From a virus, in the IMG/VR virus record IMGVR_UViG_3300009068_004979: a stretch of 64,000 nucleotides of DNA; one strand, given 5' to 3'. The notes under the pieces were generated by a model. The model was not told the origin of the DNA and made no database searches. It saw only the letters and a list, made by a program, of their open reading frames with translations. The position numbers and the translations under genes were made by a program. This document shows, piece after piece, positions 9,895-52,937 of the stretch. Within the stretch, counting starts at the first letter, position 1. Each line of letters opens with the position of its first letter.

Positions 9895-10308
9895 ATGACA
9901 TCTTTTAAGCAATTCTATAAAAGACCTGTACTCGGTGTTGGTGAAGTAATAGATATTGCTGGTATAGGGTCTGTAAAAGCCAAGGTTGATAGCGGTAATG
10001 AGGCTTTTAATGTTTTGCATGGTACCAATATAAAGGATGAAAATAACGAAGTAAGCTTTACAACAATTAATAATAAGAACATTAAAAAGCCTAAGCACGA
10101 TACTATTACAATTCATATAGGCAGCGGTGTGAAGGAAGACAGGCCTGTGGTTTTATTTGATATAAAGATAGATGGTAAAGAGTATAAAAATATACCTTTT
10201 AGTATAGCTGATAGAACGGAGAACGATGAGCCTGTTCTAGTAGGTGAGCCGTTTGTGAGACAGCTAAATGCTCTTATTGATGTGAAGAGAGATAATACAG
10301 AAGATTAA
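9895..10308 (+). CDS. Retropepsin-like protease (RimK-associated 'ATP-dependent zinc protease' family)
   Basis: AKVDSGN catalytic-type motif, E.RPVV, DR...PVLVG. Confidence 0.75.
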   Translation: MTSFKQFYKRPVLGVGEVIDIAGIGSVKAKVDSGNEAFNVLHGTNIKDENNEVSFTTINNKNIKKPKHDTITIHIGSGVKEDRPVVLFDIKIDGKEYKNIPFSIADRTENDEPVLVGEPFVRQLNALIDVKRDNTED

Positions 10309-10958
10309 TTATTCTTCATGTTGGCAACAAAAGTATAAAATTCTGCTCGAACAGCAGCATCATTCATAAAGTCACCACTTAGCTTGCTTGTCTTCATCTC
10401 ACAACCATCATGCTTAATACCGCGGAGACATGCACATGTATGAGTTGCACTCACCATAACAGCTACACCGCGATTCTTCTCGCATACTTCATTAATTGCA
10501 TCATGAATTTGAATAGTAAGACCTTCTTGTATCTGAGGTCTGCGCGCATAAAACTCCACAATACGATTCAGCTTACTCAAGCCAATTACTCTGCCTTCAA
10601 GAGAAGGAATATAGGCTACATGTGCTTTACCGGTAAAAGCGAGATGATGATGACTGCACAAGCTCTTGACTGGAATACCACCTTGAAACACCATGCCATC
10701 ATAACCATTGCTCGGAAATGATGTTACTTTTGGTGGTTCATTATAACATCCTGCAGCAAGATCCTGCACAAAAGCTTTAGCAACACGACGAGGTGTATTG
10801 GTACTATTCGGATCATTACGCCAATCAAAGCCTAGAGCATCAAGATATGCTTCATAAGCTTTTGCAGCTTTCTCAATAATCTCAACTTTCTCTCCCTCTG
10901 TATGAGGATGGTTTCCGTTGGCAAACTTCAATCTTACAACTTTACTATATTCTGACAT
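10305..10958 (-). CDS. folE: GTP cyclohydrolase I
   Basis: TPRRVAK, SLCSHH, GLSKLNRIV, RPQIQE, HTCACLRG. Confidence 0.95.
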   Translation of the reverse strand: MSEYSKVVRLKFANGNHPHTEGEKVEIIEKAAKAYEAYLDALGFDWRNDPNSTNTPRRVAKAFVQDLAAGCYNEPPKVTSFPSNGYDGMVFQGGIPVKSLCSHHHLAFTGKAHVAYIPSLEGRVIGLSKLNRIVEFYARRPQIQEGLTIQIHDAINEVCEKNRGVAVMVSATHTCACLRGIKHDGCEMKTSKLSGDFMNDAAVRAEFYTFVANMKNN

Positions 10959-12141: not shown

Positions 12142-12924
12142 ATGAATTACGAAAGTACAAAGATAATTGAATTAGGTTCTTGCGCATTTAGACAATGGAG
12201 AGCTGATAGTCATTGCAAATTTATACATGGTTACAGACTAGTAGCTAAGTTCTGGTTTAAATGTAATCATTTAGATGATAGAAACTGGGTTGTTGATTTT
12301 GGTGGTCTAAAAGAACTCAAACAAGTACTCGAAAAACAATTTGACCATACATTATGCGTTTCAGCTGACGATCCTCAGATAGAGCTTTTGAAGCAATTAC
12401 ATACTGTCGGAGCATGTGATTTGCGCATTATGCCGAAGGGAGTTGGTATTGAGAGAACAGCGGAATGGTGCTTTGATGTTGCTGATGGACATATTAGAGG
12501 TCTTACAAGCAATAGATGCTGGGTTGATAGAGTTGAGGTATGGGAACATGAAAAGAATTCTGCAATTGTGAGCTATGAGCATACATGTATTGCAAATCAT
12601 AATTCTTACGCTGCAGATAGACATATTGCAGAGCAATATGAATTACCATTTAATGGAAATGAAACAATATCAACAACCATACAGCCAAATTTACACATGT
12701 CAACAACAGTAGCTGCTGGTATTAATATCGATAATGCTAATATAACACCAGTTGATGCCCCGACAGATCCAAATACTACTCGTCCAGCTCCTGTGGGTAA
12801 TCAGAAATCTGTAATTACACAGAGCAATACTAAGCCCGATCACGCTGCTCCAGCTCGAGTAGGCAAAGCTCCTGTTACACAGGGCTGGTCTAATCCATTT
12901 GCTGGAACAAGCTGGGGCGCATAA
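12142..12924 (+). CDS. queD: 6-carboxy-5,6,7,8-tetrahydropterin synthase with a C-terminal extension
   Basis: HCKFIHGY, VDFGGLK, FDHT, EVWEH. Confidence 0.9.
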   Translation: MNYESTKIIELGSCAFRQWRADSHCKFIHGYRLVAKFWFKCNHLDDRNWVVDFGGLKELKQVLEKQFDHTLCVSADDPQIELLKQLHTVGACDLRIMPKGVGIERTAEWCFDVADGHIRGLTSNRCWVDRVEVWEHEKNSAIVSYEHTCIANHNSYAADRHIAEQYELPFNGNETISTTIQPNLHMSTTVAAGINIDNANITPVDAPTDPNTTRPAPVGNQKSVITQSNTKPDHAAPARVGKAPVTQGWSNPFAGTSWGA

Positions 12925-13930: not shown

Positions 13931-14671
13931 ATGATCAATAATTCTACCATCTTCCTCAGTGACGATAAGATATTCTATACAATTGAAGGTGAAGGAGAAC
14001 ACATAGGTAAGCCCTCTGTATTCATGAGATTATCCATGTGCAATCTCACATGTCAGGGCTTTAAATCAGCTGATGCTCCCTATGGTTGTGATAGTTTTAT
14101 AAGCTGGTCAGTTAAAAATAAGCTCACAATACAAGACATTTTAAATATGCTTGAATCTAATGGATATACGCGATATTTGCAGAATGGTGCTATTTGGAAG
14201 ATAACTGGTGGTGAACCGCTTATTCAGCAGAATAAGCTTCTAGAACTTGTTGATCAATATATATTTAGATTTGGTTATATACCGAAGATTGATTTTGAAA
14301 CTAACGCTACCATTATGCCTGATCAGCAATGGCTTGATTGGAAGGCTACATTTACAACATCACCAAAGCTGAGTAATAATGGTGATCCCGTTGAGAAGAG
14401 ATATAAACCTGAAGTATTGAAATGGCATGCTAAAAATGGATCAGGGTTTAAGTTTGTTGTGAATGGGCCCACCGATCTAAATGAGGTAATGTCACGATAT
14501 ATCAATGATCTTGGTGTTCCAAAGCATCGTGTATGGCTCATGCCATGCTGCGGCAGCAGAGATGAACATACAGTAAAAGCTGCAGCAATCGCAGAGATTT
14601 GTAAAGAAAATAATTTTAATTTCAGTCCACGGCTACAGCTAGTCATCTGGGATAAAGCGCTCAAGGTATAA
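13931..14671 (+). CDS. queE: 7-carboxy-7-deazaguanine synthase (radical SAM)
   Basis: FYTIEGEG, CNLTC...CDS, ITGGEP, ETN, SPKL. Confidence 0.93.
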   Translation: MINNSTIFLSDDKIFYTIEGEGEHIGKPSVFMRLSMCNLTCQGFKSADAPYGCDSFISWSVKNKLTIQDILNMLESNGYTRYLQNGAIWKITGGEPLIQQNKLLELVDQYIFRFGYIPKIDFETNATIMPDQQWLDWKATFTTSPKLSNNGDPVEKRYKPEVLKWHAKNGSGFKFVVNGPTDLNEVMSRYINDLGVPKHRVWLMPCCGSRDEHTVKAAAIAEICKENNFNFSPRLQLVIWDKALKV

Positions 14672-14946: not shown

Positions 14947-15684
14947 ATGAGAATTGCCATATGTGGAAGTGCTTGCCAAGGTAAAACTACTCTTGTTAAC
15001 GATTTTATAAAAGCCTGGCCTAATTATAAAAAATCTGCAGAATCATACCGGGAGGCAATAAAGAAAGAAAATCTCAAGATTAACAAAGAGATCAACAAAG
15101 ACAGTCAATGGAAAATTTTAAATTGTCTTATTGATGATGTTCAGAAGACAAACAAGAACGACTATGTAATTTTTGATCGGTGTCCAATTGATAATCTTGT
15201 ATATTCTCTCTGGAGTTTTGAGAAACAAACATCAGATATTGATAGAGAATTTATTGACAAATGCATTCCACTAGTTCGTGAAAGCATGAAGTTTATTGAT
15301 ATTATCTTCTTTGTACCCATTACAAAAGTTGCCCCGGTGCAGATTGAACCAAAAGATAATCGAGAGATTGATAAAGAATTTATAGAAGAAACAGATAATA
15401 TTTTTAAGGCTATTGAATATAGCCTGATGAACAAAGGAACCTGCCCCTTCTTCAATGATGATGATAGACCACCAATCATTGAAGTGTTTGGTTCACCAGA
15501 GCAAAGAATAGAAATTATTAAGCTATATGTTAATAAGGACGGGGATGTTGTTGATGACGGGAGTAGTGTTTTGAGCACAGAAAATATTGATATGATGGAA
15601 AAGCTTCTCAGAGAACAAAGAGAAGCCGGTTATCAAGAGAAAATCGAACAAAAATTAAAAAATAAAATCATCCTTGGTGAATAA
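14947..15684 (+). CDS. P-loop nucleotide/nucleoside kinase-like protein (AAA_28/NadR type)
   Basis: GSACQGKTT, FDRCPID, DIIFFVP. Confidence 0.75.
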   Translation: MRIAICGSACQGKTTLVNDFIKAWPNYKKSAESYREAIKKENLKINKEINKDSQWKILNCLIDDVQKTNKNDYVIFDRCPIDNLVYSLWSFEKQTSDIDREFIDKCIPLVRESMKFIDIIFFVPITKVAPVQIEPKDNREIDKEFIEETDNIFKAIEYSLMNKGTCPFFNDDDRPPIIEVFGSPEQRIEIIKLYVNKDGDVVDDGSSVLSTENIDMMEKLLREQREAGYQEKIEQKLKNKIILGE

Positions 15685-17452: not shown

Positions 17453-17482
17453 TTTTATAACATTTTATATTACAATATTATT

Positions 17483-17917: not shown

Positions 17918-18242
17918 GAATAAAAAAGATATGCCTTTTGGCGAATATTATAAACACTATCTCAAGAAGCATACAAACTTAATCAACAGGCGCTTGCATG
18001 TTATCGGCCAGCTCACAACAATCGGATATGTGACTACCGCTATCTATCTTGCAGCTACGCATAATCTCGGATGGTTGCTTCTCCTCATAGGAGCACCCTT
18101 TGTTGTATATCCTTTTGCATGGTCAGGTCATTTTTTCTTTGAGAAGAATAAACCTGCTGCGTTTAAGAACCCATGGAAAGCTAAAGCTGCTGACTGGGTT
18201 ATGCTCAAAGATATTCTCCTAGGTAGAATTAAGCTTTTTTAA
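17901..18242 (+). CDS. DUF962/Mpo1-like membrane protein
   Basis: YLKKH...NRRLHVIG, AWSGHFFFEKNKPA. Confidence 0.8.
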   Translation: MKTKNKNKKDMPFGEYYKHYLKKHTNLINRRLHVIGQLTTIGYVTTAIYLAATHNLGWLLLLIGAPFVVYPFAWSGHFFFEKNKPAAFKNPWKAKAADWVMLKDILLGRIKLF

Positions 18243-21916: not shown

Positions 21917-21961
21917 TTTATTTTAACAAGTTGAATTGCAAGAAAAATAGACTATAATATT

Positions 21962-22576: not shown

Positions 22577-22577
22577 T

Positions 22578-25220: not shown

Positions 25221-25250
25221 AAATTAAGATTACGGATTAATTATTCTTGT

Positions 25251-26695: not shown

Positions 26696-26704
26696 TTTTA
26701 GAGA

Positions 26705-38857: not shown

Positions 38858-40396
38858 ATGGCAAAACAAATCCGTCCTACACAGGCATACATTGATGAGT
38901 CTCGCGCTCGTGTGTTGCTTGAGAAGTGGGGTCCAGTATTGGACTACTCTTCCAACAACGTAAGAGCAATCGAAGACGATCACACACGTCTCAATACCGC
39001 CATTCTCTTGGAAAACCAGGAAAAGTGGTGCTTTGAGGCTAACAACGCTTCCGGTGGTACTGCAGGCGGCCTACCTTATGGTCAGGCTGGCTCAGGCGTA
39101 TTCGGTGGTGAAACAGGTGGCGCCGGTTCATTCGGCAACCAGTTCCCATCACAGAATGATAACGCATACGCCGCAGGCGATGCTCGTCTTCCGAAGATTC
39201 TCATCCCAATGATCAGACGTACGTTCCCTGAGTTGATCACTAACGAAATCGTTGGTGTTCAGCCCATGAGCGGCCCTGTCGGACTTGCTTTCGCACTTCG
39301 TTACAAGTATGAGCCTACCAACTTAGGTTATCAGTCTGGTTCGTTGGACGCAAGTTCATCATCCCAGTACTACAACAACCTAAGAGGTCTCTCTGCTAAC
39401 CCTGAATTGGGTTACCAGTACCTCGACACAAGATTCACTGGTGCTTCGTCATCAGCCTTGTCCGGGGCCACAGGTTTCTTCCAGATGCTCGATCAAGATC
39501 GTGGCGTTGCTCAGTTGCTCAGCCAGTTTGAGTTAACAAGCAATATCCCACAGATTGTGGTTAGCTTTGAGAAGACTGCAGTTGAAGCTGGTACACGTAG
39601 ACTCGCAGCTCGTTGGTCAGTTGAACTCGAGCAGGACTTGAAGAACATGAACGGTATTGATATCGACACTGAGCTCACAAACGCTATGTCTTATGAGCTA
39701 CAGGCCGAAATCGATCGTGAAATGATCATCAGAATGATTCAGACAGCACTCAACGCCGGTTACGGCCAAGGGTTCTCAGTCTGGTCACCTGCTTCAGCAG
39801 ACGGCCGTTGGCTCGTCGAGCGCAATCGTGACTTCTACCAGAGACTCATCGTTGAGGCTAACCGTATCGCTGTACGTAACCGCCGTGGTTCAGCTAATTT
39901 CGTTGTTGCAACACCTCGTGTGTGCGCAATCCTCGAAATGCTACCTGAATTCCAGTGGGCACCAGTACAGGGTAATGTTAATACTCAGCCAGTCGGAGTT
40001 GCAAAAGTGGGTTCCCTCGCAGGTCGCTTCAACGTGTATCGTGATACACGCACAGAGGCACAGTTCGAAGCAAATGCTGGCGGTAATTTCGGTGGCTCGG
40101 GTCCATTCCCAGCCAACGGTGTTACAGTCGCAAATACTCGTACAACACGTCTTGAATATGCTCTCCTTGGCTACAAGGGTCCGGAATTCTACGACACTGG
40201 TATCATCTATTGTCCGTACATTCCAGTCATGGTGCAGAGAACAATTGGTCCAAATGACTTCGCTCCACGCGTTGGTCTATTGACCCGCTATGGTGTTGTT
40301 GACAACATCTTTGGCGCTAATCTCTACTACCACGTCATCATCCTTCAGGGTCTTGGCACAGCATTCCTACCTGGTCAGCAAGCCGTTTACTTCTAA
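38858..40396 (+). CDS. gp23: Major capsid protein
   Basis: LLEKW.PVL, LLENQE, VGVQPMSGPVGLAFALR, ELEQDLK, YCPYIP, RYG. Confidence 0.97.
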   Translation: MAKQIRPTQAYIDESRARVLLEKWGPVLDYSSNNVRAIEDDHTRLNTAILLENQEKWCFEANNASGGTAGGLPYGQAGSGVFGGETGGAGSFGNQFPSQNDNAYAAGDARLPKILIPMIRRTFPELITNEIVGVQPMSGPVGLAFALRYKYEPTNLGYQSGSLDASSSSQYYNNLRGLSANPELGYQYLDTRFTGASSSALSGATGFFQMLDQDRGVAQLLSQFELTSNIPQIVVSFEKTAVEAGTRRLAARWSVELEQDLKNMNGIDIDTELTNAMSYELQAEIDREMIIRMIQTALNAGYGQGFSVWSPASADGRWLVERNRDFYQRLIVEANRIAVRNRRGSANFVVATPRVCAILEMLPEFQWAPVQGNVNTQPVGVAKVGSLAGRFNVYRDTRTEAQFEANAGGNFGGSGPFPANGVTVANTRTTRLEYALLGYKGPEFYDTGIIYCPYIPVMVQRTIGPNDFAPRVGLLTRYGVVDNIFGANLYYHVIILQGLGTAFLPGQQAVYF

Positions 40397-40472
40397 ACAA
40401 AGTACTCACTTCTGTCCTGATAGGCAGGGGATCAAAAGAAAATATTTTCACCTGGTCAGTCCCAGGAAATTT

Positions 40473-40505
40473 AAAAAAGGGCCTCTTGCGGGGCCCTTTT
40501 TTTTT
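40473..40505 (+). terminator. Intrinsic (possibly bidirectional) terminator after gp23
   Basis: AAAAAA-GGGCCTC-ttgc-GGGGCCC-TTTTTTTTT. Confidence 0.9.
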
Positions 40506-40559
40506 GGAAAAATAGTTGTATACTTGAAAAAAGTGCAAAATCTAGAATAAATACTTTAT

Positions 40560-41093
40560 ATGGCAACAACAGTTACAGCTCCATTTTCTACTAATGCAAC
40601 CAATACTGCTACATTCAATAGTGCAGTCTCTTCATTTACAGCTTATATTCCAGCCTCCGGCTTGATTGACAGCAACTTCCCAACAGGTGTTCTATCCGGT
40701 AGCAACACAGTGTATAGTGGATCTCTTTCATTTGTACTCACAGCCATAGCTGGCAATACCATTGCTGGTGGCGATTCATCCATTCTTTTGACAGTATCTG
40801 CTGCTCCTGGTAATAACCTTTTCTACGGCTTTGTAAAAAGTAGCTCTTATGTGCCTGCAACAAGAATAGCCACATTTGCTATTGGATTTTATGGATCAGA
40901 CTATATTTCAACAACCATCAATCTTTCAGCCAACGGCGTTTCCAATGTGGTTGTTGCAGATCCAACATTGTCTTCACCATTTGATATAGCATTCCAGTAC
41001 GTACCAGGTTTGGATAACGATGTACTCGGTGGCAATGTTTCCTACATTCACACAGTATCAGACTTCCTCAGAAGACTGAATCTTAACGGCTAA
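40560..41093 (+). CDS. Putative capsid decoration/structural protein
   Basis: Ser/Thr/Asn-rich, beta-type composition; own late promoter; directly after gp23. Confidence 0.55.
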   Translation: MATTVTAPFSTNATNTATFNSAVSSFTAYIPASGLIDSNFPTGVLSGSNTVYSGSLSFVLTAIAGNTIAGGDSSILLTVSAAPGNNLFYGFVKSSSYVPATRIATFAIGFYGSDYISTTINLSANGVSNVVVADPTLSSPFDIAFQYVPGLDNDVLGGNVSYIHTVSDFLRRLNLNG

Positions 41094-42008
41094 TTACTGC
41101 CGCGGTGTTTTAACAAAATACTTGTACTGATCCACTAGCACTTTATCAAGTAATTCTGCTTTGTTTGCTCTGGTAGGATTAATATCAATGCCACCTCTGC
41201 GCACATACAAGCAAGACACTACAAGTTCTTCTGGTTCAAATCTATCATAGATTCTTTTGTAGATGGTCTCGCAAATCTCTTCATGAAAATGACACTCGTC
41301 CCTGAATGATACAACATACTTTAACACCGATGTTACATTGAACAGATGCTTGCCTTTGTAGTGAATGTACACATCACCCCAATCTGGCTGTGATGTTACT
41401 CTGCAATTGCTCTTCAATAAAGCAGAATGAAATCTCTGAGTCTTAGATTCAGTTAATAATTCTGCGCTCAACAAATTAGGATTCTCCTTGTAATCTGCAG
41501 TCTCAATAGTTGTAACATCAATAAGATTCTCCAGAGTAGGATAAGAGCCATTACTAAAGATAGGCGGATAGTAAACACTATCATCAACTGCAGCGGTCAA
41601 ACGAACATAGACCCGAACTTCTGTTTCTAATAGGTCGGATAGATCATTACGAATTTTTGCTTCAAGCTGTTGCAGCACGTTAATTATTGTGCCATCAAAC
41701 ACTTCCATGTTAAAGGAATTCATGTACAGTTTGATGGACTTGGATTCCACAATGTATTTGTTATTAGCAGGATACACAATCTTTGCCACAGCTGCAATGG
41801 GCATGCCATATTCTGTTAAGCATGAAACTTCATATGCATTCCAAATATCATAACCGGCAAAGGGAGGTGCATCATCACTGATATTCAAGTGTTTTCTGTT
41901 GTTAGCCCGGGGCTCTCTAACGAGCAGAGATGGATCATAGGTACACTTGTATCCTGTTATTTTGCCCAGATGCTTTGATATGTTACTGTTATCTAATTCC
42001 GTGTTCAT
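41094..42008 (-). CDS. queF: NADPH-dependent 7-cyano-7-deazaguanine reductase (bimodular)
   Basis: YDPSLL, DIWNAYEVS, VESKSIKLY, KSNCRVTSQPDWG, FHEEIC, RRGGIDINP. Confidence 0.95.
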   Translation of the reverse strand: MNTELDNSNISKHLGKITGYKCTYDPSLLVREPRANNRKHLNISDDAPPFAGYDIWNAYEVSCLTEYGMPIAAVAKIVYPANNKYIVESKSIKLYMNSFNMEVFDGTIINVLQQLEAKIRNDLSDLLETEVRVYVRLTAAVDDSVYYPPIFSNGSYPTLENLIDVTTIETADYKENPNLLSAELLTESKTQRFHSALLKSNCRVTSQPDWGDVYIHYKGKHLFNVTSVLKYVVSFRDECHFHEEICETIYKRIYDRFEPEELVVSCLYVRRGGIDINPTRANKAELLDKVLVDQYKYFVKTPRQ

Positions 42009-42567
42009 TAAGTTTTATTTTAATTGCTTCCATTCGATCTTCCACTGTTCCCTTTAAGATAGTTACTTTTCCCTTTAGTCTTTCATCTGACAACCAGAAA
42101 TTTTCATATAGATCAATAATTGCATCTCTAAATTCTTTATTAACACTTCTCTCACCATCATCTACTAACGGAACATCATGAGGACTTGGATAGAAGATAT
42201 GATCATACCTATGAATATGATTCACATAGTACATCAATCCCAAACTATTAGACACAGGAAAATCATTCAACTTCCCTCTAGCAAAATAAGTTGTAAACAC
42301 CATGCCATCCATCAAGCAACGATCATGCAGTATGCCTTGAAATCCAAACCCTTTGTAATTATAGAATAAATTCTCAAACTCCTTATTAAGAATCAAAGTT
42401 TGAGTTACATCATTTGCACCAGTTTCATTTATATCAACCCCATACTCGCGTTTAATCAGTCTAGTAACTTCATCAATGTAGCAAAGCTTAGAACCATAGT
42501 ACTCCTTACACTTCTTTAAAAGAGTAGTCTTACCCGAACACTGCGGACCTGTAAAAGTAAAAATCAT
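41989..42567 (-). CDS. P-loop nucleotide kinase-like protein (AAA_28)
   Basis: FTGPQCSGKTT, HDRCLMD, DDGER; ATGA overlap at 42564-42567. Confidence 0.75.
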   Translation of the reverse strand: MIFTFTGPQCSGKTTLLKKCKEYYGSKLCYIDEVTRLIKREYGVDINETGANDVTQTLILNKEFENLFYNYKGFGFQGILHDRCLMDGMVFTTYFARGKLNDFPVSNSLGLMYYVNHIHRYDHIFYPSPHDVPLVDDGERSVNKEFRDAIIDLYENFWLSDERLKGKVTILKGTVEDRMEAIKIKLNEHGIR

Positions 42568-42911
42568 TTGCCCCACTTACCATTATATACTATTTCTGCT
42601 ATAATGCCATACACTGCTGAGTCTCTAAATGCATCCATGACAGGCTCATTAGCCGAATTCATGGCTTTCTTTTTTAAGACCAAATTAATTAGGCGTTGAA
42701 TTTTATCATTGAGGCGCACCACAATGGCAGAAACTGCTGCAAATTTATCCTCTTGTTTTACCAGATCAGAACCCAAAGAAATATTTCCTGGACCATAGTC
42801 AAACTGTTTCTTGCAAAATGTTTCGTATAATTCAGCTTGTATTTTTTGAAACTCTTTGCATGTTTCTGGAAAATTTTTCTCAACGTATTTGACAATATCT
42901 TCTTTGTTCAT
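42564..42911 (-). CDS. DUF1599 / nucleotide-modification-associated domain protein
   Basis: F.KKQ.DYG, R..DK..RL, E...D...D...YGII. Confidence 0.75.
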   Translation of the reverse strand: MNKEDIVKYVEKNFPETCKEFQKIQAELYETFCKKQFDYGPGNISLGSDLVKQEDKFAAVSAIVVRLNDKIQRLINLVLKKKAMNSANEPVMDAFRDSAVYGIIAEIVYNGKWGK

Positions 42912-43867
42912 AATCTTACCCCGTACGGTACTTTACTTAAATTTAACGCGCCCAGATTGCAACCACCAGCATAACTTATTGCACTCTGCAAGTCCTGCTT
43001 TATCTCTTCCATTTTTTCGAGATATGTGAATGTATCTGTTTCCATGAGCTTCATTGTACCTTCAATATTTTTCTTTTCAATCTTATTATGCTGACTTGCA
43101 GAACCAAAGTATTGTTTATACCGCCTGCCACTTGCATCCTTAACAAGTGGTGCCGGGCTATCCGAACAAGCAGCAAATATGGACCCACACATGACCATGC
43201 TTGCACCTGCTACAAGAGCTTTAGCGATATCACCGTTGCAGCGCACTCCGCCGTCTGCAATAATGGGAATATTTCTATCCTTGGCGCATTCTATTATGCA
43301 GCTAAACATAGGATAGGTGAACCCTGTCTTGTCTTTTGTAGTGCATGCATACCCACCACCAATGCCGGCTTTTACAACATCAGCCCCAACATTATGTAAA
43401 TATTCTACACCTTGAAAAGTTGCAACATTGCCTGCAATAATCTTTGCATTGGGAATCACTTGCTTGATATGTTTAATTTGATCTGCTACTTTTGAATGAT
43501 GGCCATGAGCAACATCTATGGTTATAAAATCGACTCTCATCATGCTCTGCGCAATGGATGTTAATATGTTCTTATCTTTCTGCTGTATCCCTACACTTAT
43601 AGAGATAGTATGAAACTCTTGAAGATTAGCATAGCGGACAAAGTTGTTTATATCTTCATCAAACCTATGCATGATATAAAAATAGCCATGCTTATCTAAA
43701 AGCATGCATGTGTCTGTATCTACACAACACTTCATATTTGCAGGCACAACTGGTAGCTTAAATGTACGAGATCCAAACATTATATCTGTATCAATCTCTG
43801 CTCTGGATTGTACTGAATTAAAATTAGGCTTGAGAAAAACGTTTTCGTAGTGTAGAGATAAATCCAT
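42908..43867 (-). CDS. guaC: GMP reductase
   Basis: PVVPANM, IMHRF, DVAHGH, AGNVAT, GIGGGYACTT, IIADGG, FGSAS, SAISYAGG; no CBS insert. Confidence 0.9.
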   Translation of the reverse strand: MDLSLHYENVFLKPNFNSVQSRAEIDTDIMFGSRTFKLPVVPANMKCCVDTDTCMLLDKHGYFYIMHRFDEDINNFVRYANLQEFHTISISVGIQQKDKNILTSIAQSMMRVDFITIDVAHGHHSKVADQIKHIKQVIPNAKIIAGNVATFQGVEYLHNVGADVVKAGIGGGYACTTKDKTGFTYPMFSCIIECAKDRNIPIIADGGVRCNGDIAKALVAGASMVMCGSIFAACSDSPAPLVKDASGRRYKQYFGSASQHNKIEKKNIEGTMKLMETDTFTYLEKMEEIKQDLQSAISYAGGCNLGALNLSKVPYGVRL

Positions 43868-43868
43868 A

Positions 43869-44438
43869 TTAGCGTTCTAAGATTTTATATGCTGTGAAAA
43901 AGCTTTTCCAGAGATCAAGTGCTGTGTCTCGCAATGCACCGTAAACACCACCTAACGACATTCCCTCAATGCCTGTGCCCTGGCTCATTAATATTTCTCC
44001 TTCATCTACCCCAGGTGTTACTCTGTGTATAACACAGCCTGCTAATTTATACCCCTCAGCAAAAGCTCTTTCTTGTGGATTGAATCCCTTTAAAGAAGGA
44101 TATTTATCTATCAATCCAGGATGCAAATTATATATTTCATATTTTTCACAAATCTCTTTGGGAATAATTCTTAAAAACCCATGCAATGTAATAACAGGGT
44201 TCTCAAAACAATTCAATACGCCTTCATAGTCACTCACAGTTGGTTTCTGCGGCAACTGAATCCAAATATTTTCATTTAGTTTCTGTGATCTAAATTCTGT
44301 TACTACTTTTAATCTAATATTAGTATTCTTATGATTCTGTTTGTTTGTTGCAATACAATCTGGGTATATGCCAAGTGCATTACTAAGATCATATATCTCA
44401 GTACCAGTTTGCGAAAAAAATGTTACCCAAGGTCTCAT
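43869..44438 (-). CDS. PurN-like formyltransferase (DpdN-like, putative preQ1 formyltransferase)
   Basis: FFSQTG, LHGFLRII, YNLHPG, GCVIHRVTPGVDEG. Confidence 0.82.
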   Translation of the reverse strand: MRPWVTFFSQTGTEIYDLSNALGIYPDCIATNKQNHKNTNIRLKVVTEFRSQKLNENIWIQLPQKPTVSDYEGVLNCFENPVITLHGFLRIIPKEICEKYEIYNLHPGLIDKYPSLKGFNPQERAFAEGYKLAGCVIHRVTPGVDEGEILMSQGTGIEGMSLGGVYGALRDTALDLWKSFFTAYKILER

Positions 44439-45247
44439 CTGCGAACAATCTTCTTAAACATTGCAGTGTTATACTTTACAAGTTCAAGTTGATCATCTGT
44501 AAAATTGTGTGTAATGAGGTCAGCTAATTTAGTTGATGGTTTATTATCTAAACCATAATCAGCATCATACTTCAATCCATGTATAGCAGCAACAACGGGA
44601 TTGCTGGTATCACAACTAACAATATTGTTAATATCTCTATCCACATAATATCTAAACTCCTTAGCTAAAGAGCAACCAAGCAGATGATGCGGCTTGCTCC
44701 AATTCCATACACCTGTATTTATGAGATCAGCAATGAAGCGCTGACGGCCAGTGCACCACTTCTCAAGATGTGTCATACCTTCACCAGTAGTTAGGTAATA
44801 ACTAAAATCAAAACTTATGGCAATCATGTCAGCATTATCTGCCATAAATTTGTAGCATTCTTTTAACTCATGCCAAGTTTTACCCTGCACAGCGCCTATG
44901 GCTTTTGTAAGAAAACTATCCTTAATATTGAGTGTGTAATTCGCAAAAGCTTTGAAGCTTTGCATTGTGCCTTGAGCATCTTCCAGCACATCTGGCACAA
45001 TAAACATGTTTGGCTTGATCTCTTTAGCCTTTACCCAGAACTCGCGACTATCAAAAGCTTTACCCAATTCAAAAATAGAATTATCAAGCAGCACTTCTCT
45101 ATTGTAAATATGTCTAGCTGATTTAAAAAAGTCATTATATGCAGGATATTGATCCAAGAGATGCACAAGACAGTAGTCAAAATCATTATAATCCCTTGAG
45201 AGATCAAGTATAGATACAGGAGATTCGTGAGATACTTTCATTAGCAT
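44435..45247 (-). CDS. TGT/DpdA-like guanine transglycosylase (DpdA3-like)
   Basis: LLDNSIFELG, VPDV, GAVQG, HHLLG, SCDTS (TGT-type D, QG, HLLG, D motifs); leads the queF operon. Confidence 0.7.
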   Translation of the reverse strand: MLMKVSHESPVSILDLSRDYNDFDYCLVHLLDQYPAYNDFFKSARHIYNREVLLDNSIFELGKAFDSREFWVKAKEIKPNMFIVPDVLEDAQGTMQSFKAFANYTLNIKDSFLTKAIGAVQGKTWHELKECYKFMADNADMIAISFDFSYYLTTGEGMTHLEKWCTGRQRFIADLINTGVWNWSKPHHLLGCSLAKEFRYYVDRDINNIVSCDTSNPVVAAIHGLKYDADYGLDNKPSTKLADLITHNFTDDQLELVKYNTAMFKKIVRR

Positions 45248-45253
45248 AATAAC

Positions 45254-45281
45254 ATTATACAAGTAAATAATAATATATCAA
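45254..45281 (-). promoter_or_regulatory. Sigma70-like promoter of the deazaguanine operon
   Basis: TTGATA-N16-TATAAT-N6-ATG(45247). Confidence 0.7.
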
Positions 45282-45283
45282 CA

Positions 45284-48001
45284 ATGAATTATCCACAATA
45301 TTACGGTAATTACCTGGGCATAGTTGTACAGAATAACGATCCGCTTAAGCGCGGCCGTGTTAAAGTTTTTGTACCACATATTTCACCGACTGTATACAAA
45401 AATTGGACAGAAATTAAAAGGGACAAGAAATTTAAATTCGTTGGTGTTAACACATACAGTGATTTAACAGATGTTGTAGAAGATTTAAAAAGGATTTTAC
45501 CTTGGGCTGAATGTGCTGCTCCTCTAGCAGGTCAATCAAGTAGTGGTCGGTATAATGTGTATCAAAATACCGGTTCCATAAGCAGCAGCAACAAGTTACC
45601 CACAACAGTATCTAATCTTTCATCATGCGAAATAACGCCAGAAATTTTAACCAAATATACTCAAAATCGTGATGCAATCGGTGAGAAGCCAGGCAACATG
45701 TATGATGCAAATTACTTCCGACTTAATGATGCATTCAGTGATCCCACGCAAACCAATGTTAATAATGTTAATAAATTGAGTTATGCATATACACCTGAAT
45801 GCTATAGTAACAGTGCTAATGGTGCTTTTGCTATCCCCAATGTAGGGTCTCATTTGTGGGTATTTTTTAACGCCGGTGATCCATTAAGACCAGTTTATTT
45901 TGCTTCTTCATTTGGTGTTGAGGATTGGAGAAGTATTTTTGATGCTGGTAGTGCTCGCTCAACAGATTTTTCTATTGTAACAGGAGCTAGTCAGGGCATG
46001 GATTACCCGGGTGAATATGAAAACAAAAGACTTGCTGCAAACGAAGAATATAATATCAATACAGAAAATTATCGCAACAAATATGTTATCAACCAGAAAG
46101 GCGGCACATTACAATTTGTAAATTCTGATAATCGAGAGATGTTAAAGCTAACTCACTTCTCCGGTTCATTCAAGGAATTTAATAATTATGCAAATATTGA
46201 GCTTGCTACTGCTAATGATCAAAAATTAGTAATGGGAGATCAATTCCTAACGGTGCGCGGTGATAGAAATGAATATACTGAAAAAGATCATGACTTCCTA
46301 GTCAAAGGAGATTATTTTAGAAAAATTGGCAATTTGAACGCTGACCTAGCCAAACAATGGAAGGGGATTGTCAGTGAAATTGCAGACTTGAAACAGCTGT
46401 TTGATATTCAACGCACTAATGGAACAAGTACAGGTGTTCCAAAACTTTCTTCAAAATTACAGAAAAAATTAGGCAGAGCTGCACCTTGTCCAGTATGCTC
46501 TGATCCTTTCAATACATATTTTTATTATAATAATTCTTACCTGCCTGTAGGGTTTACTAATCAAGTAAACGGAACATTAGCTGACAGTGGTGGTGATTAC
46601 TTGTACTCCATGTCCATTGTAAATGGTGTTTCACTACCTAGTGTTAGATACCCCGGTCTTCTGGGCACAGTAAACTATACCAGCCCCAATACAGTGCTAG
46701 GTGGTGCCGTTGATTTTTCTGTGTGGCCATCAGGCAACGGTCGTATCTTTGGCGCCAAATGCCCATGCTGCAATGGTACAACTCTGAGCCCTTCATCCTA
46801 TGCAGGAGATTGGGTAGCCGATAGTAGAAAGTCTCAAATAACAGCTAAGATTAATAATCAAATTGCCACATTAGCTGAAATAGAGAAGAAAATGGGTCTG
46901 GGTGGTAATGAAATTGTAGAAATTACCAAACACAAAATTGAAACAATTGGAACAGTTATGAATGATTTCGGATCAATTAGAGTTGATCCACAAGGAAAAA
47001 TCTTCATAACAGATGTGCAGATAGCACCATATGGAGTATTCTATAACCGCCAGCCATCGCCACTCATTGAATATGTGCACGTGGATGACTTACCTGGTGG
47101 TAATTACACACTTAATGTATGTAATCGTTACAATGTGCAAGTGGGTTCTGGTGGTATCAATTTAAAAACATATGGACCCCTTAACATAGCAGGTGCCATT
47201 ACTAATGTAGCTGGTGAACAGGTCAATATTGCCAGTGAAAATGAAGTAAACATAGATGGTGGCAGAAGATTGTCACTCATTGCTGATATCATTAGCATCA
47301 GACAGAGAAACAGAAAGCAGGTTGTAATTGAAGGCAATCTTGGCATTACTGCTAATGCTACTGTAGCAGGCTCCATGCATGTGGAAGGTGAAATCTTTAC
47401 TAACCATGTAACCGCACCAGTGGAAATACAAGCTACAGAGCAGTCCACTGTGTATGGTGCTGCCGCAACAGACTTCAATAATAACAATGGCAAGATCATT
47501 GGCTTTGGTGTGCCCATGTCAAAATTGGCTCTTAAGGGTAGACTGGGCAAGTTCTACACACCCAATCAAGTGGGTACTGCATACATTGGTAAGACTGACA
47601 GCACTGTGTTTATTGGTAAAACAGATACTGCACAAATTGTTGGATACCTAAAACCTGCAGATGTTAGCGCCATGATAAAAGACGGCGATGGAGATCCATG
47701 CAGCGCTACCGGTAATGTACCAATTTATGGTAGCAATATTAACTGTGTCAAAGGTACTGATATTAATGGTGTGTATGGTTCCAATGAAGGTGGCACAGGT
47801 GCAACAGCTGAATCAATGCCCATCATTGTGTATGGCACTGGGCGCGATGATGACAGTGTCAAGATGGATCCACACAGTCACTTATTTAAAAACTTACCAC
47901 TCACACTATATGAGACAAATAGTGAAGTAAGAAAAGCTGCAAGTACCATTAACGACGGTGCTCAGGTCTGTTGCAATCCGGTTACAAATAATCAGAAATA
48001 A
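45284..48001 (+). CDS. gp5: gp5/VgrG-like baseplate hub and spike protein
   Basis: YLGIVVQNNDPLKRGRVKV, LPWA, IPNVG..WVFF..GD...PVYF OB fold; HSH near the C-terminus. Confidence 0.75.
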   Translation: MNYPQYYGNYLGIVVQNNDPLKRGRVKVFVPHISPTVYKNWTEIKRDKKFKFVGVNTYSDLTDVVEDLKRILPWAECAAPLAGQSSSGRYNVYQNTGSISSSNKLPTTVSNLSSCEITPEILTKYTQNRDAIGEKPGNMYDANYFRLNDAFSDPTQTNVNNVNKLSYAYTPECYSNSANGAFAIPNVGSHLWVFFNAGDPLRPVYFASSFGVEDWRSIFDAGSARSTDFSIVTGASQGMDYPGEYENKRLAANEEYNINTENYRNKYVINQKGGTLQFVNSDNREMLKLTHFSGSFKEFNNYANIELATANDQKLVMGDQFLTVRGDRNEYTEKDHDFLVKGDYFRKIGNLNADLAKQWKGIVSEIADLKQLFDIQRTNGTSTGVPKLSSKLQKKLGRAAPCPVCSDPFNTYFYYNNSYLPVGFTNQVNGTLADSGGDYLYSMSIVNGVSLPSVRYPGLLGTVNYTSPNTVLGGAVDFSVWPSGNGRIFGAKCPCCNGTTLSPSSYAGDWVADSRKSQITAKINNQIATLAEIEKKMGLGGNEIVEITKHKIETIGTVMNDFGSIRVDPQGKIFITDVQIAPYGVFYNRQPSPLIEYVHVDDLPGGNYTLNVCNRYNVQVGSGGINLKTYGPLNIAGAITNVAGEQVNIASENEVNIDGGRRLSLIADIISIRQRNRKQVVIEGNLGITANATVAGSMHVEGEIFTNHVTAPVEIQATEQSTVYGAAATDFNNNNGKIIGFGVPMSKLALKGRLGKFYTPNQVGTAYIGKTDSTVFIGKTDTAQIVGYLKPADVSAMIKDGDGDPCSATGNVPIYGSNINCVKGTDINGVYGSNEGGTGATAESMPIIVYGTGRDDDSVKMDPHSHLFKNLPLTLYETNSEVRKAASTINDGAQVCCNPVTNNQK

Positions 48002-52484: not shown

Positions 52485-52937
52485 TTATTCTATGTTACAG
52501 GGTTCCCAAGGGAAGGCAAGCCATGTTTTCTGGCTAAATTCTTTAACAAAGAAGTCTGGTCTAAATAATGTCTGTTTCTTCACATACAGGCAAGCCGCTT
52601 TAATCTCTTTAGACTCAAGAATACCCACGGTATCAATGAAGCTACTGCCAGTGTCCGAAAGATCATCCATGATAATAACCTTATTAAGTTTTTCGAAACT
52701 TGGCACTTGATAAATCTCTTTAACTATTTGCTCCTGATTTAAGTATGATTTATAACCCAGGCTGAATACTTTCTCTATGCCAAGTAAATGGCTTAGCATG
52801 ACTGCAGGTACTAGCCCACCGCGACTCAGACCTAAAATATTATATTCTTTATAATCAGGTAGCTGTTCTTTTATTTGATTAGCTAGCTTGTCACAATCAT
52901 TGCCAATTGTTTTCCAGCTTAGTTTTCTAATGCTCAT
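52485..52937 (-). CDS. Type I purine phosphoribosyltransferase (Gpt-like)
   Basis: GLSRGGLVPA, IIMDDLSDTGSS, WLAFPWE. Confidence 0.9.
   Translation of the reverse strand: MSIRKLSWKTIGNDCDKLANQIKEQLPDYKEYNILGLSRGGLVPAVMLSHLLGIEKVFSLGYKSYLNQEQIVKEIYQVPSFEKLNKVIIMDDLSDTGSSFIDTVGILESKEIKAACLYVKKQTLFRPDFFVKEFSQKTWLAFPWEPCNIE

What the first reader, a model, noticed from the sequence alone, without database searches (positions are those of the whole stretch)
41094..45281. Six-gene operon predicting 7-(formylamino)methyl-7-deazaguanine DNA
Seen: one promoter, then DpdA-like, PurN-like formyltransferase, GMP reductase, DUF1599-like, kinase and QueF, all overlapping or abutting; folE, queD and queE lie at 10-15 kb. 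Known: FolE/QueD/QueE/QueC make preQ0 and QueF gives preQ1; DpdA3 plus the PurN paralogue DpdN are linked to fdPreQ1 and extensive G replacement in a Flavobacterium phage. Inference: the same or a related hypermodified base in a different phage lineage. QueC is not in this window.
Basis: partly seen in the sequence, partly recalled or inferred. Interest (0 to 1): 0.8.

Follow-up and report, generated by a model that had tools for sequence, protein, structure and literature searches.

The report
Phage formyl-preQ1 DNA operon, DpdA3 type
An uncultured T4-like phage carries a diverged, enlarged copy of the known gene set that replaces guanine in phage DNA with a formylated 7-deazaguanine, and the nucleotide enzymes that always travel with its base-swapping enzyme bear on the open question of whether the swap is made on finished DNA or on free nucleotides.

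Summary
Six tightly coupled minus-strand genes (41094-45247) encode a DpdA3-type TGT-fold protein, a PurN-like formyltransferase (DpdN), a GMP reductase, an Nmad1/DUF1599 protein, a P-loop kinase and a bimodular QueF. FolE, QueD and QueE lie at 10.3-14.7 kb. QueC is absent from the window but present in related complete phage genomes.

The core DpdA3-DpdN-kinase-QueF is syntenic with Flavobacterium phage immuto at 30-46% identity. Immuto DNA has every G replaced by fdPreQ1 (Cui et al. 2023). This operon is therefore a new variant of a known system, in a T4-like lineage with at least 46 IMG/VR relatives. GMP reductase and Nmad1 are the additions.

- The kinase family occurs, among 50,697 phage records, only in DpdA3 phages.
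- Nmad1 co-varies with DpdN and is fused to it in some relatives.
- Each cultured DpdA3 lineage keeps an NTP phosphohydrolase and a P-loop kinase beside DpdA3.
- A small phosphoribosyltransferase co-occurs in several lineages.

These points favour, without proving, a nucleotide-level (pre-replicative) swap over the published post-replicative model. The product has not been measured. This scan has already flagged the same operon type in at least 18 other genomes.

The parts
45254..45281 (-). Promoter-like site TTGATA-N16-TATAAT. Its -10 box ends 6 nt before the dpdA3 ATG, which implies a leaderless or near-leaderless mRNA.
   Evidence: It scores 11/12 and is the best match in 40300-46000. It has the same layout as the site before queE (13897-13924). 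The class is enriched: 18 found against 4.7 in shuffles.
44435..45247 (-). DpdA3-type guanine/7-deazaguanine transglycosylase: a minimal TGT barrel of 270 aa. The ORF is open up to a TTG at 45262.
   Evidence: phrog_19058 6.8e-56. 45% identity to immuto gp206 and CP220 gp056. AF2 pLDDT 92.5. TGT fold. hhalign to phiST DpdA3 gives 97.3%. D55, D86, D213 and H187/H188 are invariant.
43869..44438 (-). DpdN, a PurN-paralogue formyltransferase (189 aa).
   Evidence: PF00551 7.9e-15. 46% identity to immuto gp204. N104-x-H106 and D145 are invariant in 19 orthologues. The N-terminal 70 residues do not match PurN.
42908..43867 (-). GMP reductase, GuaC type 2 (319 aa).
   Evidence: NF003966 5e-102, 341.5 bits against a cut-off of 344. 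PDB 1YPF 1.5e-75 with the Cys loop GIGxGxxCTTK conserved. Present inside the cassette in 21 of 46 related loci.
42564..42911 (-). Nmad1/DUF1599 protein (115 aa, all-helical), an accessory tied to DpdN.
   Evidence: Weak DUF1599 hits. 1796 relatives. Fused to DpdN in P0005, P0012, P0024 and P0045. Present in 32 of 33 DpdN-positive loci and 0 of 10 DpdN-negative loci.
41989..42576 (-). P-loop nucleoside/nucleotide kinase of the AAA_28 type ('kin1'). The probable start is ATG 42567.
   Evidence: PF13521 1e-11, phrog_2107. Nearest PDB matches are thymidylate kinase at 1e-5, NadR ribosylnicotinamide kinase at 4e-5 and dNK at 5e-4. 30% identity to immuto gp203 and CP220 gp057. Homologues occur only in DpdA3 phages.
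41094..42008 (-). Bimodular QueF (preQ0 to preQ1 nitrile reductase, 304 aa).
   Evidence: TIGR03138 1e-78. V. cholerae QueF 3BP1 4e-48, with the ESKSxKLY motif and the catalytic Cys in LLKSNC conserved.
10305..10958 (-). FolE (GTP cyclohydrolase I).
   Evidence: PF01227 4.2e-49. 60% identity to the immuto FolE region.
12142..12924 (+). QueD (CPH4 synthase) with a low-complexity C-terminal tail of about 110 aa.
   Evidence: PF01242 2.2e-16, phrog_2389 4e-37. The motif HCKFIHGY is shared with immuto and phiST QueD and differs from the DpdL motif.
13931..14671 (+). QueE (CDG synthase, radical SAM).
   Evidence: phrog_2076 7.1e-43. 71-72% identical in four related genomes.
14947..15684 (+). Second AAA_28 kinase paralogue ('kin2'), downstream of queE.
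   Evidence: PF13521 8e-12, phrog_2107 1.6e-18. It directly follows queE in G001, G002 and G004 and lies 1.1 kb away in G003.
52485..52937 (-). Small type I phosphoribosyltransferase (150 aa), a likely purine or deazapurine salvage enzyme.
   Evidence: PF00156 8.3e-13. It has phage homologues in only 16 records, 9 of them DpdA3 phages: 4 immuto records (gene gp211, between queE and folE) and 5 phiST-group records.

Best explanation
The operon is the late half of a DpdA3/DpdN-type 7-deazaguanine DNA hypermodification pathway.

Proposed pathway:
1. FolE, QueD and QueE (in the window) plus QueC (elsewhere in the genome) make preQ0 from GTP.
2. QueF reduces preQ0 to preQ1.
3. The TGT-fold enzyme DpdA3 exchanges guanine for the deazapurine on a deoxyribose.
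4. DpdN, a PurN paralogue, formylates the aminomethyl group with a formyl-folate donor, probably assisted by Nmad1.
5. The virion DNA is predicted to carry 7-(formylamino)methyl-7-deazaguanine (fdPreQ1) in place of most or all G, which blocks restriction enzymes.

I put this product-level claim at about 0.8.

I also commit, narrowly, to a substrate for the exchange. I think it is made at least partly on free deoxyguanine nucleotides before replication. In that model dGTP is converted to dGMP. DpdA3 swaps the base and DpdN formylates the mononucleotide. The DpdA3-linked kinase kin1, and perhaps kin2, re-phosphorylates the product, and the phage polymerase incorporates it. The phosphoribosyltransferase would recycle the released guanine to GMP, feeding FolE through GTP. 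GMP reductase would keep the guanine pool low.

Shown here: the gene identities, folds, catalytic motifs, synteny and co-distribution. Inferred: every enzymatic step, the product and the level of action.
For: Product-level evidence:
- DpdA3 membership.
- DpdN orthology with an intact catalytic triad.
- Intact QueF.
- FolE, QueD and QueE in the window and QueC in related complete genomes.
- Synteny with immuto, whose DNA is 100% fdPreQ1 (PMC10516641).

Nucleotide-level evidence:
1. kin1 lies next to DpdA3 in all 41 IMG/VR loci that reach far enough downstream, including the 10 that lack DpdN.
2. Among 50,697 phage records, kin1 homologues occur only in the DpdA3 phages: 17 Campylobacter Firehammer-type records and 4 immuto records, and in none of the DpdA1/DpdA2 phages. 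The orthologue abuts DpdA3 in CP220 (gp057) and lies in the same cassette in immuto (gp203).
3. Each cultured DpdA3 lineage also keeps an NTP phosphohydrolase nearby. Immuto gp208 is PRA-PH (MazG clan). PhiST gp039 is MazG, with a P-loop protein gp041 beside DpdA3. CP220 gp055 is an HD domain fused to an AAA_33 kinase.
4. DpdN is a paralogue of an enzyme that formylates a phosphoribosyl amine.
5. Nmad1 is fused to DpdN, and elsewhere to a NUDIX hydrolase. In other phages it sits in nucleotide-metabolism modules next to thymidylate synthase.
6. DpdA3 is a bare 260-280-aa barrel; only about 235 of bDpdA's 413 residues align with it.
7. Hutinet et al. 2019 record that a modified-dGTP route had been proposed for Campylobacter phages. 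Cui et al. 2023 report the ADG nucleoside in the cytoplasm of infected cells and could not get DpdA3 to work in their E. coli model.
8. dpdA3 and queE share a leaderless promoter layout, although the cassette sits among structural genes.
Against: - No chemistry exists for this phage.
- DpdN activity has never been shown in any phage.
- Every characterised TGT/DpdA enzyme acts on a polynucleotide, or in the case of Cap10 on a protein, and none on a mononucleotide.
- Complete replacement can also be reached after replication; T4 glucosylation is the example (my own knowledge).
- The co-distribution counts are not phylogenetically independent. They represent about four lineages.
- The phiST P-loop protein is not orthologous to kin1.
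- Nmad1 showed no detectable similarity to MazG, so no dGTPase has been identified in this window.
- A stand-alone glutamine amidotransferase next to QueC in relatives could divert preQ0 towards another base.
Confidence: 0.45

Rival explanations
1. The product (fdPreQ1 DNA) is the same, but the swap is strictly post-replicative, as published. DpdA3 acts on duplex DNA and DpdN formylates either the free base or dPreQ1 already in DNA. The accessory genes serve the guanine economy. The phosphoribosyltransferase and kinases recycle the tens of thousands of guanines excised per genome back to GTP for FolE. GMP reductase and this salvage remove free guanine so that the reversible exchange runs to completion. 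Alternatively, the P-loop protein is an ATPase partner of DpdA3 on DNA, functionally like DpdB.
For: - All tested DpdA enzymes work on DNA.
- The best structural matches include the DNA preQ0 insertase DpdA (Z 17.7).
- bDpdA needs the ATPase DpdB for insertion (PMC10164549), so an ATP-using neighbour need not be a nucleotide kinase.
- The PRT and GMP reductase fit a salvage loop equally well.
- GMP reductase and Nmad1 homologues also occur together in general nucleotide modules of phages without DpdA.
- Cui et al. 2023 argue for post-replicative insertion.
Against: - A host guanylate kinase would suffice for salvage. Yet a kinase family confined to DpdA3 phages, in two copies, is kept next to DpdA3 and queE.
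- MazG, PRA-PH and HD NTP phosphohydrolases beside DpdA3 in the three cultured lineages have no role in this model.
- kin1's closest structural relatives are small-molecule kinases (TMPK, NadR-RNK, dNK), not DNA-dependent ATPases.
- The authors' attempts to test DpdA3 in the E. coli model used for other DpdA enzymes were unsuccessful.
Confidence: 0.4
2. The pathway ends in a different base. Candidates are plain dPreQ1 with DpdN serving folate or purine metabolism, another N-acylated preQ1, or a G+/ADG-type base made through the stand-alone amidotransferase near QueC.
For: - DpdN's function is only predicted.
- Its acceptor-binding N-terminus is unlike PurN's.
- Ten related loci lack DpdN altogether and would stop at dPreQ1.
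- A GATase_6 gene lies next to QueC in relatives, and Gat-QueC fusions give dG+ in phage 9g.
Against: - DpdN here is the full-length orthologue (46%) of the immuto protein, in the same position between DpdA3 and kinase/QueF.
- Immuto DNA contains fdPreQ1 and no dPreQ1.
- The catalytic triad is invariant across 19 orthologues.
- A complete, intact QueF argues for flux to preQ1.
Confidence: 0.1
3. The genes do not modify phage DNA. They would manipulate host tRNA queuosine or the purine pool only, as an auxiliary metabolic module.
For: TGT-fold enzymes and QueF are primarily tRNA-pathway enzymes. GMP reductase, PRT and kinase are generic purine genes.
Against: - The TGT-fold protein groups only with DpdA3 proteins of phages whose DNA is fully substituted.
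- It lacks any Pfam TGT match and about a third of the TGT chain.
- The cassette is conserved in at least 46 phage contigs between capsid and baseplate genes.
Confidence: 0.03

Closest known systems
[quoted passage not shown] 2023, PMC10516641)
   Same: - Orthologous DpdA3 (45%), DpdN (46%), kinase (30%) and QueF (45%) in the same order.
- FolE (60%) and QueD (39-42%, with the same HCxFxHGY motif).
- A small PRT (30%) is also shared.
- The predicted product is the same.
   Different: - The backbone is a T4-like phage rather than Immutovirus, and there is no DNA similarity.
- GMP reductase and Nmad1 are inserted between DpdN and the kinase.
- The cassette is antisense, between the major capsid and baseplate spike genes, and about 30 kb from folE/queD/queE.
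- Immuto has a PRA-PH pyrophosphohydrolase upstream of DpdA3 that this window lacks.
- The product has not been measured here.
dADG system of Campylobacter phage CP220 and other Firehammervirus (Crippen et al. 2019; DpdA3 assigned by Cui et al. 2023)
   Same: - DpdA3 at 45-46% identity.
- An orthologous AAA_28 kinase sits directly beside it, and there are two kinase paralogues per genome.
- The phage is a T4-related myovirus.
- G is completely replaced.
   Different: - No QueF or DpdN was seen in the 16.7-kb region around CP220 DpdA3, and its DNA base is ADG.
- An HD-kinase fusion lies upstream of DpdA3.
- No PRT homologue was found at E <= 1e-3.
dDG system of Cellulophaga phage phiST (DpdA3 prototype CGPG_00065 with DpdL)
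   Same: - A distant DpdA3 (hhalign 97.3%).
- QueD/QueE/FolE and a PRT homologue (30%).
- A P-loop protein and an NTP pyrophosphohydrolase beside DpdA3.
   Different: - The base is 7-deazaguanine, made through DpdL.
- No QueF or DpdN is annotated in the 12.6-kb region read; Cui et al. report that the full preQ0 pathway is absent from phiST.
- Its P-loop protein (AAA_18) is not orthologous to kin1.
Bacterial DpdA/DpdB/DpdC (Salmonella Montevideo; PMC10164549) and phage DpdA1/DpdA2
   Same: - A TGT-type barrel (Z 17.7 to 7ui4).
- Conserved aspartates are available for a double-displacement mechanism.
- An ATP-using partner lies nearby.
   Different: - About 11% identity, and no Pfam TGT hit.
- DpdA3 is roughly 140 residues shorter.
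- bDpdA, DpdA1 and DpdA2 modify 0.1-30% of G, in at least some cases at specific sequences.
- DpdB is a ParB-like ATPase, not a TMPK-like kinase.
Pre-replicative base-replacement pathways (T4 gp56/gp42/gp1 for hmC; S-2L MazZ/DatZ/PurZ for 2-aminoadenine). This comparison concerns how it may work, not membership, and rests on my own knowledge.
   Same: A dedicated kinase, and in sister lineages an NTP phosphohydrolase, clustered with a base-modifying enzyme in phages that replace a base completely.
   Different: The base-modifying enzyme would be a transglycosylase rather than a synthase or hydroxymethylase. No dGTPase has been identified in this window. Nothing has been shown biochemically.

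Membership tests
DpdA3 subfamily of TGT/DpdA transglycosylases | TGT-type (beta/alpha)8 barrel | tested here: met
   AF2 pLDDT 92.5, pTM 0.90. Foldseek gives TGT at E 3.7e-10, prob 1.00, TMq 0.69. VIA-align gives arcTGT Z 17.9, DpdA Z 17.7, bacterial TGT Z 16.8 and QTRT2 Z 15.9, against Z 13-15 for generic TIM barrels.
DpdA3 subfamily of TGT/DpdA transglycosylases | Groups with the DpdA3 prototypes (phiST CGPG_00065, CP220, immuto) rather than with DpdA1, DpdA2, DpdA4 or bDpdA | tested here: met
   At E <= 1e-5, tblastn against 50,697 phage records finds only immuto and Campylobacter Firehammer-type phages. The phiST group appears at 5e-3. hhalign to phiST gp042 gives 97.3% over 239 columns. 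No Pfam TGT hit. No tree with the other subfamilies was built.
DpdA3 subfamily of TGT/DpdA transglycosylases | Catalytic aspartates (general acid/base and nucleophile; Asp95 and Asp256 in bDpdA) | tested here: inconclusive
   D55 (LLDNS), D86 and D213 (CDTSNP) are invariant in 16 orthologues. D55 and D213 are kept in phiST DpdA3. Their mapping onto Asp95 and Asp256 rests on motif order, not on a residue-level superposition.
DpdA3 subfamily of TGT/DpdA transglycosylases | Complete replacement of G in virion DNA | not testable with these tools
   This needs LC-MS/MS of virion DNA, and no isolate is known.
DpdN (preQ1/dPreQ1 formyltransferase, PurN paralogue) | Formyl_trans_N fold with the Asn-x-His...Asp catalytic triad | tested here: met
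   PF00551 7.9e-15. The alignment to PurN structures keeps YNLHPG and VDEG. N104, H106 and D145 are invariant in 19 orthologues.
DpdN (preQ1/dPreQ1 formyltransferase, PurN paralogue) | Belongs to the group co-encoded with DpdA and the FolE-to-QueF pathway (Cui et al. group 1) | tested here: met
   46% identity over the full length to immuto gp204. It is adjacent to DpdA3 and in one operon with QueF. FolE, QueD and QueE are in the window. QueC was seen only in related genomes.
DpdN (preQ1/dPreQ1 formyltransferase, PurN paralogue) | Formylation of the 7-aminomethyl group | not testable with these tools
   This has not been demonstrated in any phage.
Bimodular QueF | QueF_N plus QueF domains, the QueF motif and the catalytic Cys | tested here: met
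   PF14819 4.7e-33, PF14489 1.6e-21, TIGR03138 1e-78 (264.7 bits, under the equivalog cut-off of 293). ESKSIKLYMNS and LLKSNC align with V. cholerae QueF.
GMP reductase (GuaC, type 2) | Reaches the equivalog score, and has an IMPDH/GMPR barrel with the catalytic Cys loop | tested here: inconclusive
   NF003966 scores 341.5 bits against a cut-off of 344, so it falls just short. B. anthracis GMP reductase 1YPF matches at 1.5e-75 over 303 residues with the Cys loop conserved. The substrate was not tested.
Nmad1 / DUF1599 (PF07659) | Match to the Pfam model at its gathering score | tested here: inconclusive
   The window protein has no hit at E <= 0.01. Eight of 13 orthologues hit weakly, with a best E of 0.0023. 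Profile-search relatives reach 25.0-26.3 bits against a cut-off of 25. The Atlas feature score is 0.96 to DUF1599 clusters. The AF2 model is poor (pLDDT 57.9).
TMPK/dNK/NadR-type P-loop kinases (AAA_28) | Walker A motif, DR motif and a lid arginine, with similarity to small-molecule kinases | tested here: met
   PF13521 1e-11. G10, G15, K16, D85, R86 and R143 are invariant. PDB matches are TMPK 1.1e-5, NadR RNK 3.9e-5 and dNK 5.5e-4. The substrate is unknown.
Pre-replicative (nucleotide-pool) base-replacement systems | A canonical-dNTP phosphohydrolase that removes the competing nucleotide | tested here: inconclusive
   None has been identified in this window. Nmad1 showed no similarity to MazG or to any solved structure. 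Sister DpdA3 lineages do carry MazG, PRA-PH or HD genes next to DpdA3.
Pre-replicative (nucleotide-pool) base-replacement systems | Modifying enzyme acts on a mononucleotide, a dedicated kinase makes the di- or triphosphate, and the polymerase uses it | not testable with these tools
   Only gene linkage and co-distribution are available.

The most novel reading that the evidence does not exclude
DpdA3 is not a DNA-modifying enzyme but a deoxyguanine-nucleotide:7-deazaguanine base-exchange enzyme. Phages that replace G completely (immuto, CP220, phiST and this T4-like lineage) would then build a modified dNTP pool. An NTP phosphohydrolase would supply the monophosphate. DpdA3 would swap the base and DpdN with Nmad1 would formylate the mononucleotide. 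A DpdA3-specific kinase family would re-phosphorylate it, and the phage polymerase would incorporate it. PRT and GMP reductase would recycle and drain the released guanine. [quoted passage not shown] It would also give the TGT superfamily its first mononucleotide substrate.
Probability: 0.4. Interest if true: 0.85.

Novelty: new variant of a known kind. Interest (0 to 1): 0.55.

Why it matters
If virion DNA of this lineage is fully fdPreQ1-substituted, a base so far known from one Baltic Flavobacterium phage is common in a large environmental group of T4-like phages. At least 46 IMG/VR contigs carry the cassette, some of them from genomes of 160-230 kb. Such DNA resists most restriction enzymes and may be poorly recovered or mis-called by sequencing chemistries.

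More generally, the accessory genes documented here turn an open question into concrete assays. They are a kinase family confined to DpdA3 phages, Nmad1 fused to DpdN, a PRT, GMP reductase and, in sister lineages, NTP phosphohydrolases. The question is whether complete G replacement is made on DNA or in the nucleotide pool.

A route to 7-substituted 7-deaza-dGTPs from natural enzymes would also interest nucleic-acid chemists.

Tried and rejected
- I first labelled the divergent 905-aa gene at 45284-48001 a DNA polymerase. Pfam shows a Phage_base_V spike domain instead. PF00476 finds no PolA in four related genomes. The claim 'next to the polymerase' is dropped.
- Sequence searches of PDB with profiles of DpdA3, and with two profiles of Nmad1, found nothing meaningful.
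- hhalign of Nmad1 against phiST MazG gave probability 0.2. 'Nmad1 is a MazG-like dGTPase' is therefore not supported and is kept only as a guess from its E-x3-D-x3-D helix.
- The AF2 model of Nmad1 was too poor (pLDDT 57.9) for a fold search.
- The complex prediction for DpdN with Nmad1 gave no verdict (score 0.00). It counts neither way.
- hhalign of the kin1 profile against the phiST P-loop protein gp041 matched only the Walker A loop, so the two are not orthologous.
- blastn of the operon against phage genomes found no match.
- No whole genome is held for the window, so QueC could only be sought in relatives.
- Crippen et al. 2019 is not held. Its content is cited only through Hutinet 2019 and Cui 2023.
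- I looked for a link between the GMP reductase and the deoxyinosine phages of Campylobacter. Campylobacter is not among the ten commonest organism names of the GMP reductase matches, though seven further names went unlisted.
- Net charge of DpdA3 (pI 5.1-6.1 in all 19 proteins) is too weak to weigh without the same figure for DNA-acting DpdA enzymes.

Full report
**What is there.** Window 41094-45262 holds six minus-strand ORFs with junctions of -4, +1, -4, -13 and -20 nt, negative values being overlaps. They are flanked on the other strand by a gp23-type major head gene (38858-40396, phrog_138 at 4.9e-81), a 177-aa ORF that ends one base before QueF's stop codon, and a baseplate spike gene (45284-48001, Phage_base_V). 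The cassette therefore runs antisense inside the structural module. GC skew reverses across it.

A sigma70-like site lies in the 36-nt gap before the ATG at 45247 (TTGATA-16-TATAAT, 11/12, 45281-45254). The generic promoter scan is not enriched (22 found, 22.0 expected). A narrower class, TTGAnn-N16-TAnnnT, occurs 18 times against 4.7 +/- 2.1 in shuffles. In several cases its -10 box ends exactly 6 nt before a start codon, and queE (13897-13924, ATG at 13931) and dpdA3 are both among them. This suggests leaderless transcripts and common regulation of the two halves of the pathway.

**Gene identities.**
- *DpdA3, 44435-45247.* It has no Pfam or NCBIfam hit but matches phrog_19058. In 50,697 phage records its only clear relatives are immuto gp206, annotated as DNA guanine transglycosylase, at 45%, and the Campylobacter CP220 group at 45-46%. 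The phiST group follows at E 5e-3, and hhalign gives 97.3% against phiST gp042. An AF2 model from 16 orthologues has pLDDT 92.5. It matches TGT by Foldseek (E 3.7e-10, prob 1.00). By VIA-align it matches archaeosine TGT (Z 17.9), the DNA preQ0 insertase DpdA (Z 17.7), bacterial TGT (Z 16.8) and QTRT2 (Z 15.9). It is a bare barrel: only about 235 of bDpdA's 413 residues align. D55, D86, D213 and H187/H188 are invariant.
- *DpdN, 43869-44438.* It has a Formyl_trans_N domain and is 46% identical to immuto gp204 over its full length. The PurN triad N104-x-H106...D145 is invariant in 19 orthologues. Its first 70 residues do not match PurN.
- *GMP reductase, 42908-43867.* NF003966 scores 341.5 bits against a cut-off of 344. 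B. anthracis GMP reductase matches at 1.5e-75 with the catalytic Cys loop conserved.
- *Nmad1, 42564-42911.* A 115-aa helical protein. DUF1599/Nmad1 is seen only weakly.
- *Kinase kin1, 41989-42576.* An AAA_28 P-loop kinase. Its nearest solved relatives are thymidylate kinase, NadR ribosylnicotinamide kinase and deoxynucleoside kinase.
- *QueF, 41094-42008.* Bimodular, with its motif and catalytic Cys intact.

Elsewhere in the window lie FolE, QueD and QueE. The QueD motif HCKFIHGY matches that of immuto and phiST QueD. A second AAA_28 kinase (kin2) follows queE, and a 150-aa phosphoribosyltransferase lies at 52485-52937. No QueC is in the window. Four related genomes encode one next to a UvsX-like gene, 46-52 kb from dpdA.

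**Comparison with known systems.** Immuto has the order DpdA3, small ORF, DpdN, kinase, QueF, with QueD, QueE, a PRT and FolE just upstream. Its DNA contains fdPreQ1 at 345,000 per million nucleotides and no detectable dG. DpdN there is a proposal, not a demonstration (PMC10516641). The window cassette is the same core with GMP reductase and Nmad1 inserted, on a T4-like backbone that has no DNA similarity to any deposited phage.

IMG/VR holds 46 related loci. Their gene content is as follows:
- The kinase follows DpdA3 in all 41 loci that reach far enough downstream.
- 33 loci carry DpdN. Ten have DpdA3-kinase-QueF without DpdN and would be predicted to stop at dPreQ1. Three are cut short.
- GMP reductase is inside the cassette in 21 loci.
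- Nmad1 is present in 32 of 33 DpdN-positive loci and in none of the 10 DpdN-negative ones.
- In 32 loci the cassette is followed by the convergent gp23-type gene.

**New links found here.**
1. A profile search with Nmad1 found 1796 relatives. At least four 50%-identity clusters are DpdN::Nmad1 fusions; Formyl_trans_N was scanned on all four and the two compared are 39-42% identical to the window DpdN. These fusions sit in DpdA3-fusion-kinase-QueF cassettes between spike and gp23 (L057 and L058). Another cluster is a NUDIX::Nmad1 fusion. Nmad1 is thus tied to the formylation step and to nucleotide enzymes. It is not a shown dGTPase.
2. Among 50,697 phage records, kin1 homologues occur only in Campylobacter Firehammer-type phages (17 records, most with two copies) and immuto (4 records). 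These are exactly the DpdA3 phages, and none of the many DpdA1/DpdA2 phages has one. The orthologue abuts DpdA3 in CP220 and lies two genes from it, after DpdN, in immuto.
3. Every cultured DpdA3 lineage has an NTP phosphohydrolase close to DpdA3. Immuto gp208 is PRA-PH of the MazG clan. PhiST gp039 is MazG, and a P-loop protein gp041 abuts DpdA3. CP220 gp055 is an HD domain fused to an AAA_33 kinase.
4. The PRT has homologues in only 16 phage records, nine of them immuto or phiST-group phages.
5. kin2 directly follows queE in three related genomes and lies 1.1 kb from it in a fourth.
6. GMP-reductase-like and Nmad1 genes also occur together in the nucleotide modules of a crAss-like phage and a Microcystis phage that have no DpdA. 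That pair is therefore not specific to deazaguanines.

**How it most likely works.** With about 0.8 confidence the cassette, together with FolE, QueD, QueE and QueC, yields fdPreQ1-substituted DNA as in immuto.

The level at which DpdA3 acts is open. Hutinet et al. 2019 note that a modified-dGTP route had been proposed for Campylobacter phages. Cui et al. 2023 replaced that view with post-replicative insertion once DpdA3 was recognised. The same paper reports the ADG nucleoside in infected cytoplasm and failed attempts to get DpdA3 working in E. coli.

The linkage pattern here consists of a private kinase family, neighbouring NTP phosphohydrolases, a PurN paralogue, Nmad1 fusions and a minimal barrel. 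It is what one expects of a nucleotide-pool pathway of the T4 hmC or S-2L type (that comparison is my own knowledge). I put this reading at 0.40-0.45.

The post-replicative reading gets about 0.40. It is supported by the fact that every tested family member works on a polymer. bDpdA also needs an ATPase partner, DpdB (PMC10164549). Finally, PRT, kinases and GMP reductase could simply recycle and drain the excised guanine. A different end product gets about 0.1 and a role unrelated to DNA about 0.03.

**Standing.** This is a new variant of a known system, not a new kind. The same operon type has already been flagged and followed up in this scan in at least 18 other genomes, with the same conclusion. 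Those notes are not independent evidence. All the points above were tested here.

Noticed in passing
window 55891-56898 (+): A 335-aa protein with an LCIB/C-type beta-carbonic-anhydrase domain (PF18599, 1.3e-23) sits among tail-fibre genes. This is an unusual auxiliary gene for a phage.
   Followed up: no
window 16637-28829 (+): A long same-strand gene block includes a B12-binding radical SAM enzyme (19713-21233), a DegT-type aminotransferase (23089-24285, phrog_3139 at 1.5e-77) and a radical SAM/SPASM enzyme (27624-28829). It looks like a sugar or glycan biosynthesis cluster.
   Followed up: no
window 14947-15684 (+): A second AAA_28 kinase paralogue with a charged C-terminal tail of about 45 aa lies after queE. 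The adjacency is conserved in relatives, and Campylobacter DpdA3 phages also carry two paralogues.
   Followed up: partly
window 12142-12924 (+): QueD carries a C-terminal extension of about 110 aa rich in Pro, Thr, Ala and Asn. Immuto QueD (153 aa) lacks it.
   Followed up: no
L050:2219-2869(+), L051:715-1404(-): In related complete genomes a stand-alone class-II glutamine amidotransferase (N-terminal MCGIFG; GATase_6 at 1e-6 to 9e-8) lies directly after QueC, which follows a UvsX-like gene. This is a split form of the Gat-QueC fusion known from dG+ phages. It may supply ammonia to QueC or point to a second deazaguanine product.
   Followed up: partly
L057:8001-8939, L058:471-1409, L056:603-1523: Natural DpdN::Nmad1 fusion proteins (306-312 aa) occur in otherwise identical DpdA3-kinase-QueF cassettes. 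L057 also has a PRT and a dCMP deaminase beyond the spike gene.
   Followed up: yes
L030-L034, L038, L040-L042, L047: Ten related phage contigs have DpdA3-kinase-QueF with no DpdN, Nmad1 or GMP reductase. They would be predicted to carry plain dPreQ1, possibly at full replacement, which has not been reported for DpdA3 phages.
   Followed up: partly
window 13114-13878 (-), 332-1393 (-), 1393-1998 (-): A PhoH-like ATPase, a calcineurin-like phosphoesterase (Mre11/gp47-like) and a protein with a weak sigma70 region 2 hit (a possible late sigma factor) lie in the early region near the deazaguanine genes.
   Followed up: no
L054 (crAss-like phage cr108_1) 4626-7921; L053 (Microcystis phage Mel-JY01) 6231-11369: DUF1599/Nmad1 and GMP-reductase-like genes co-occur in the replication and nucleotide modules of unrelated phages without DpdA. 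In cr108_1 they lie beside thymidylate synthase, a phosphoesterase and thioredoxin. This hints that Nmad1 serves folate-dependent nucleotide enzymes in general.
   Followed up: partly
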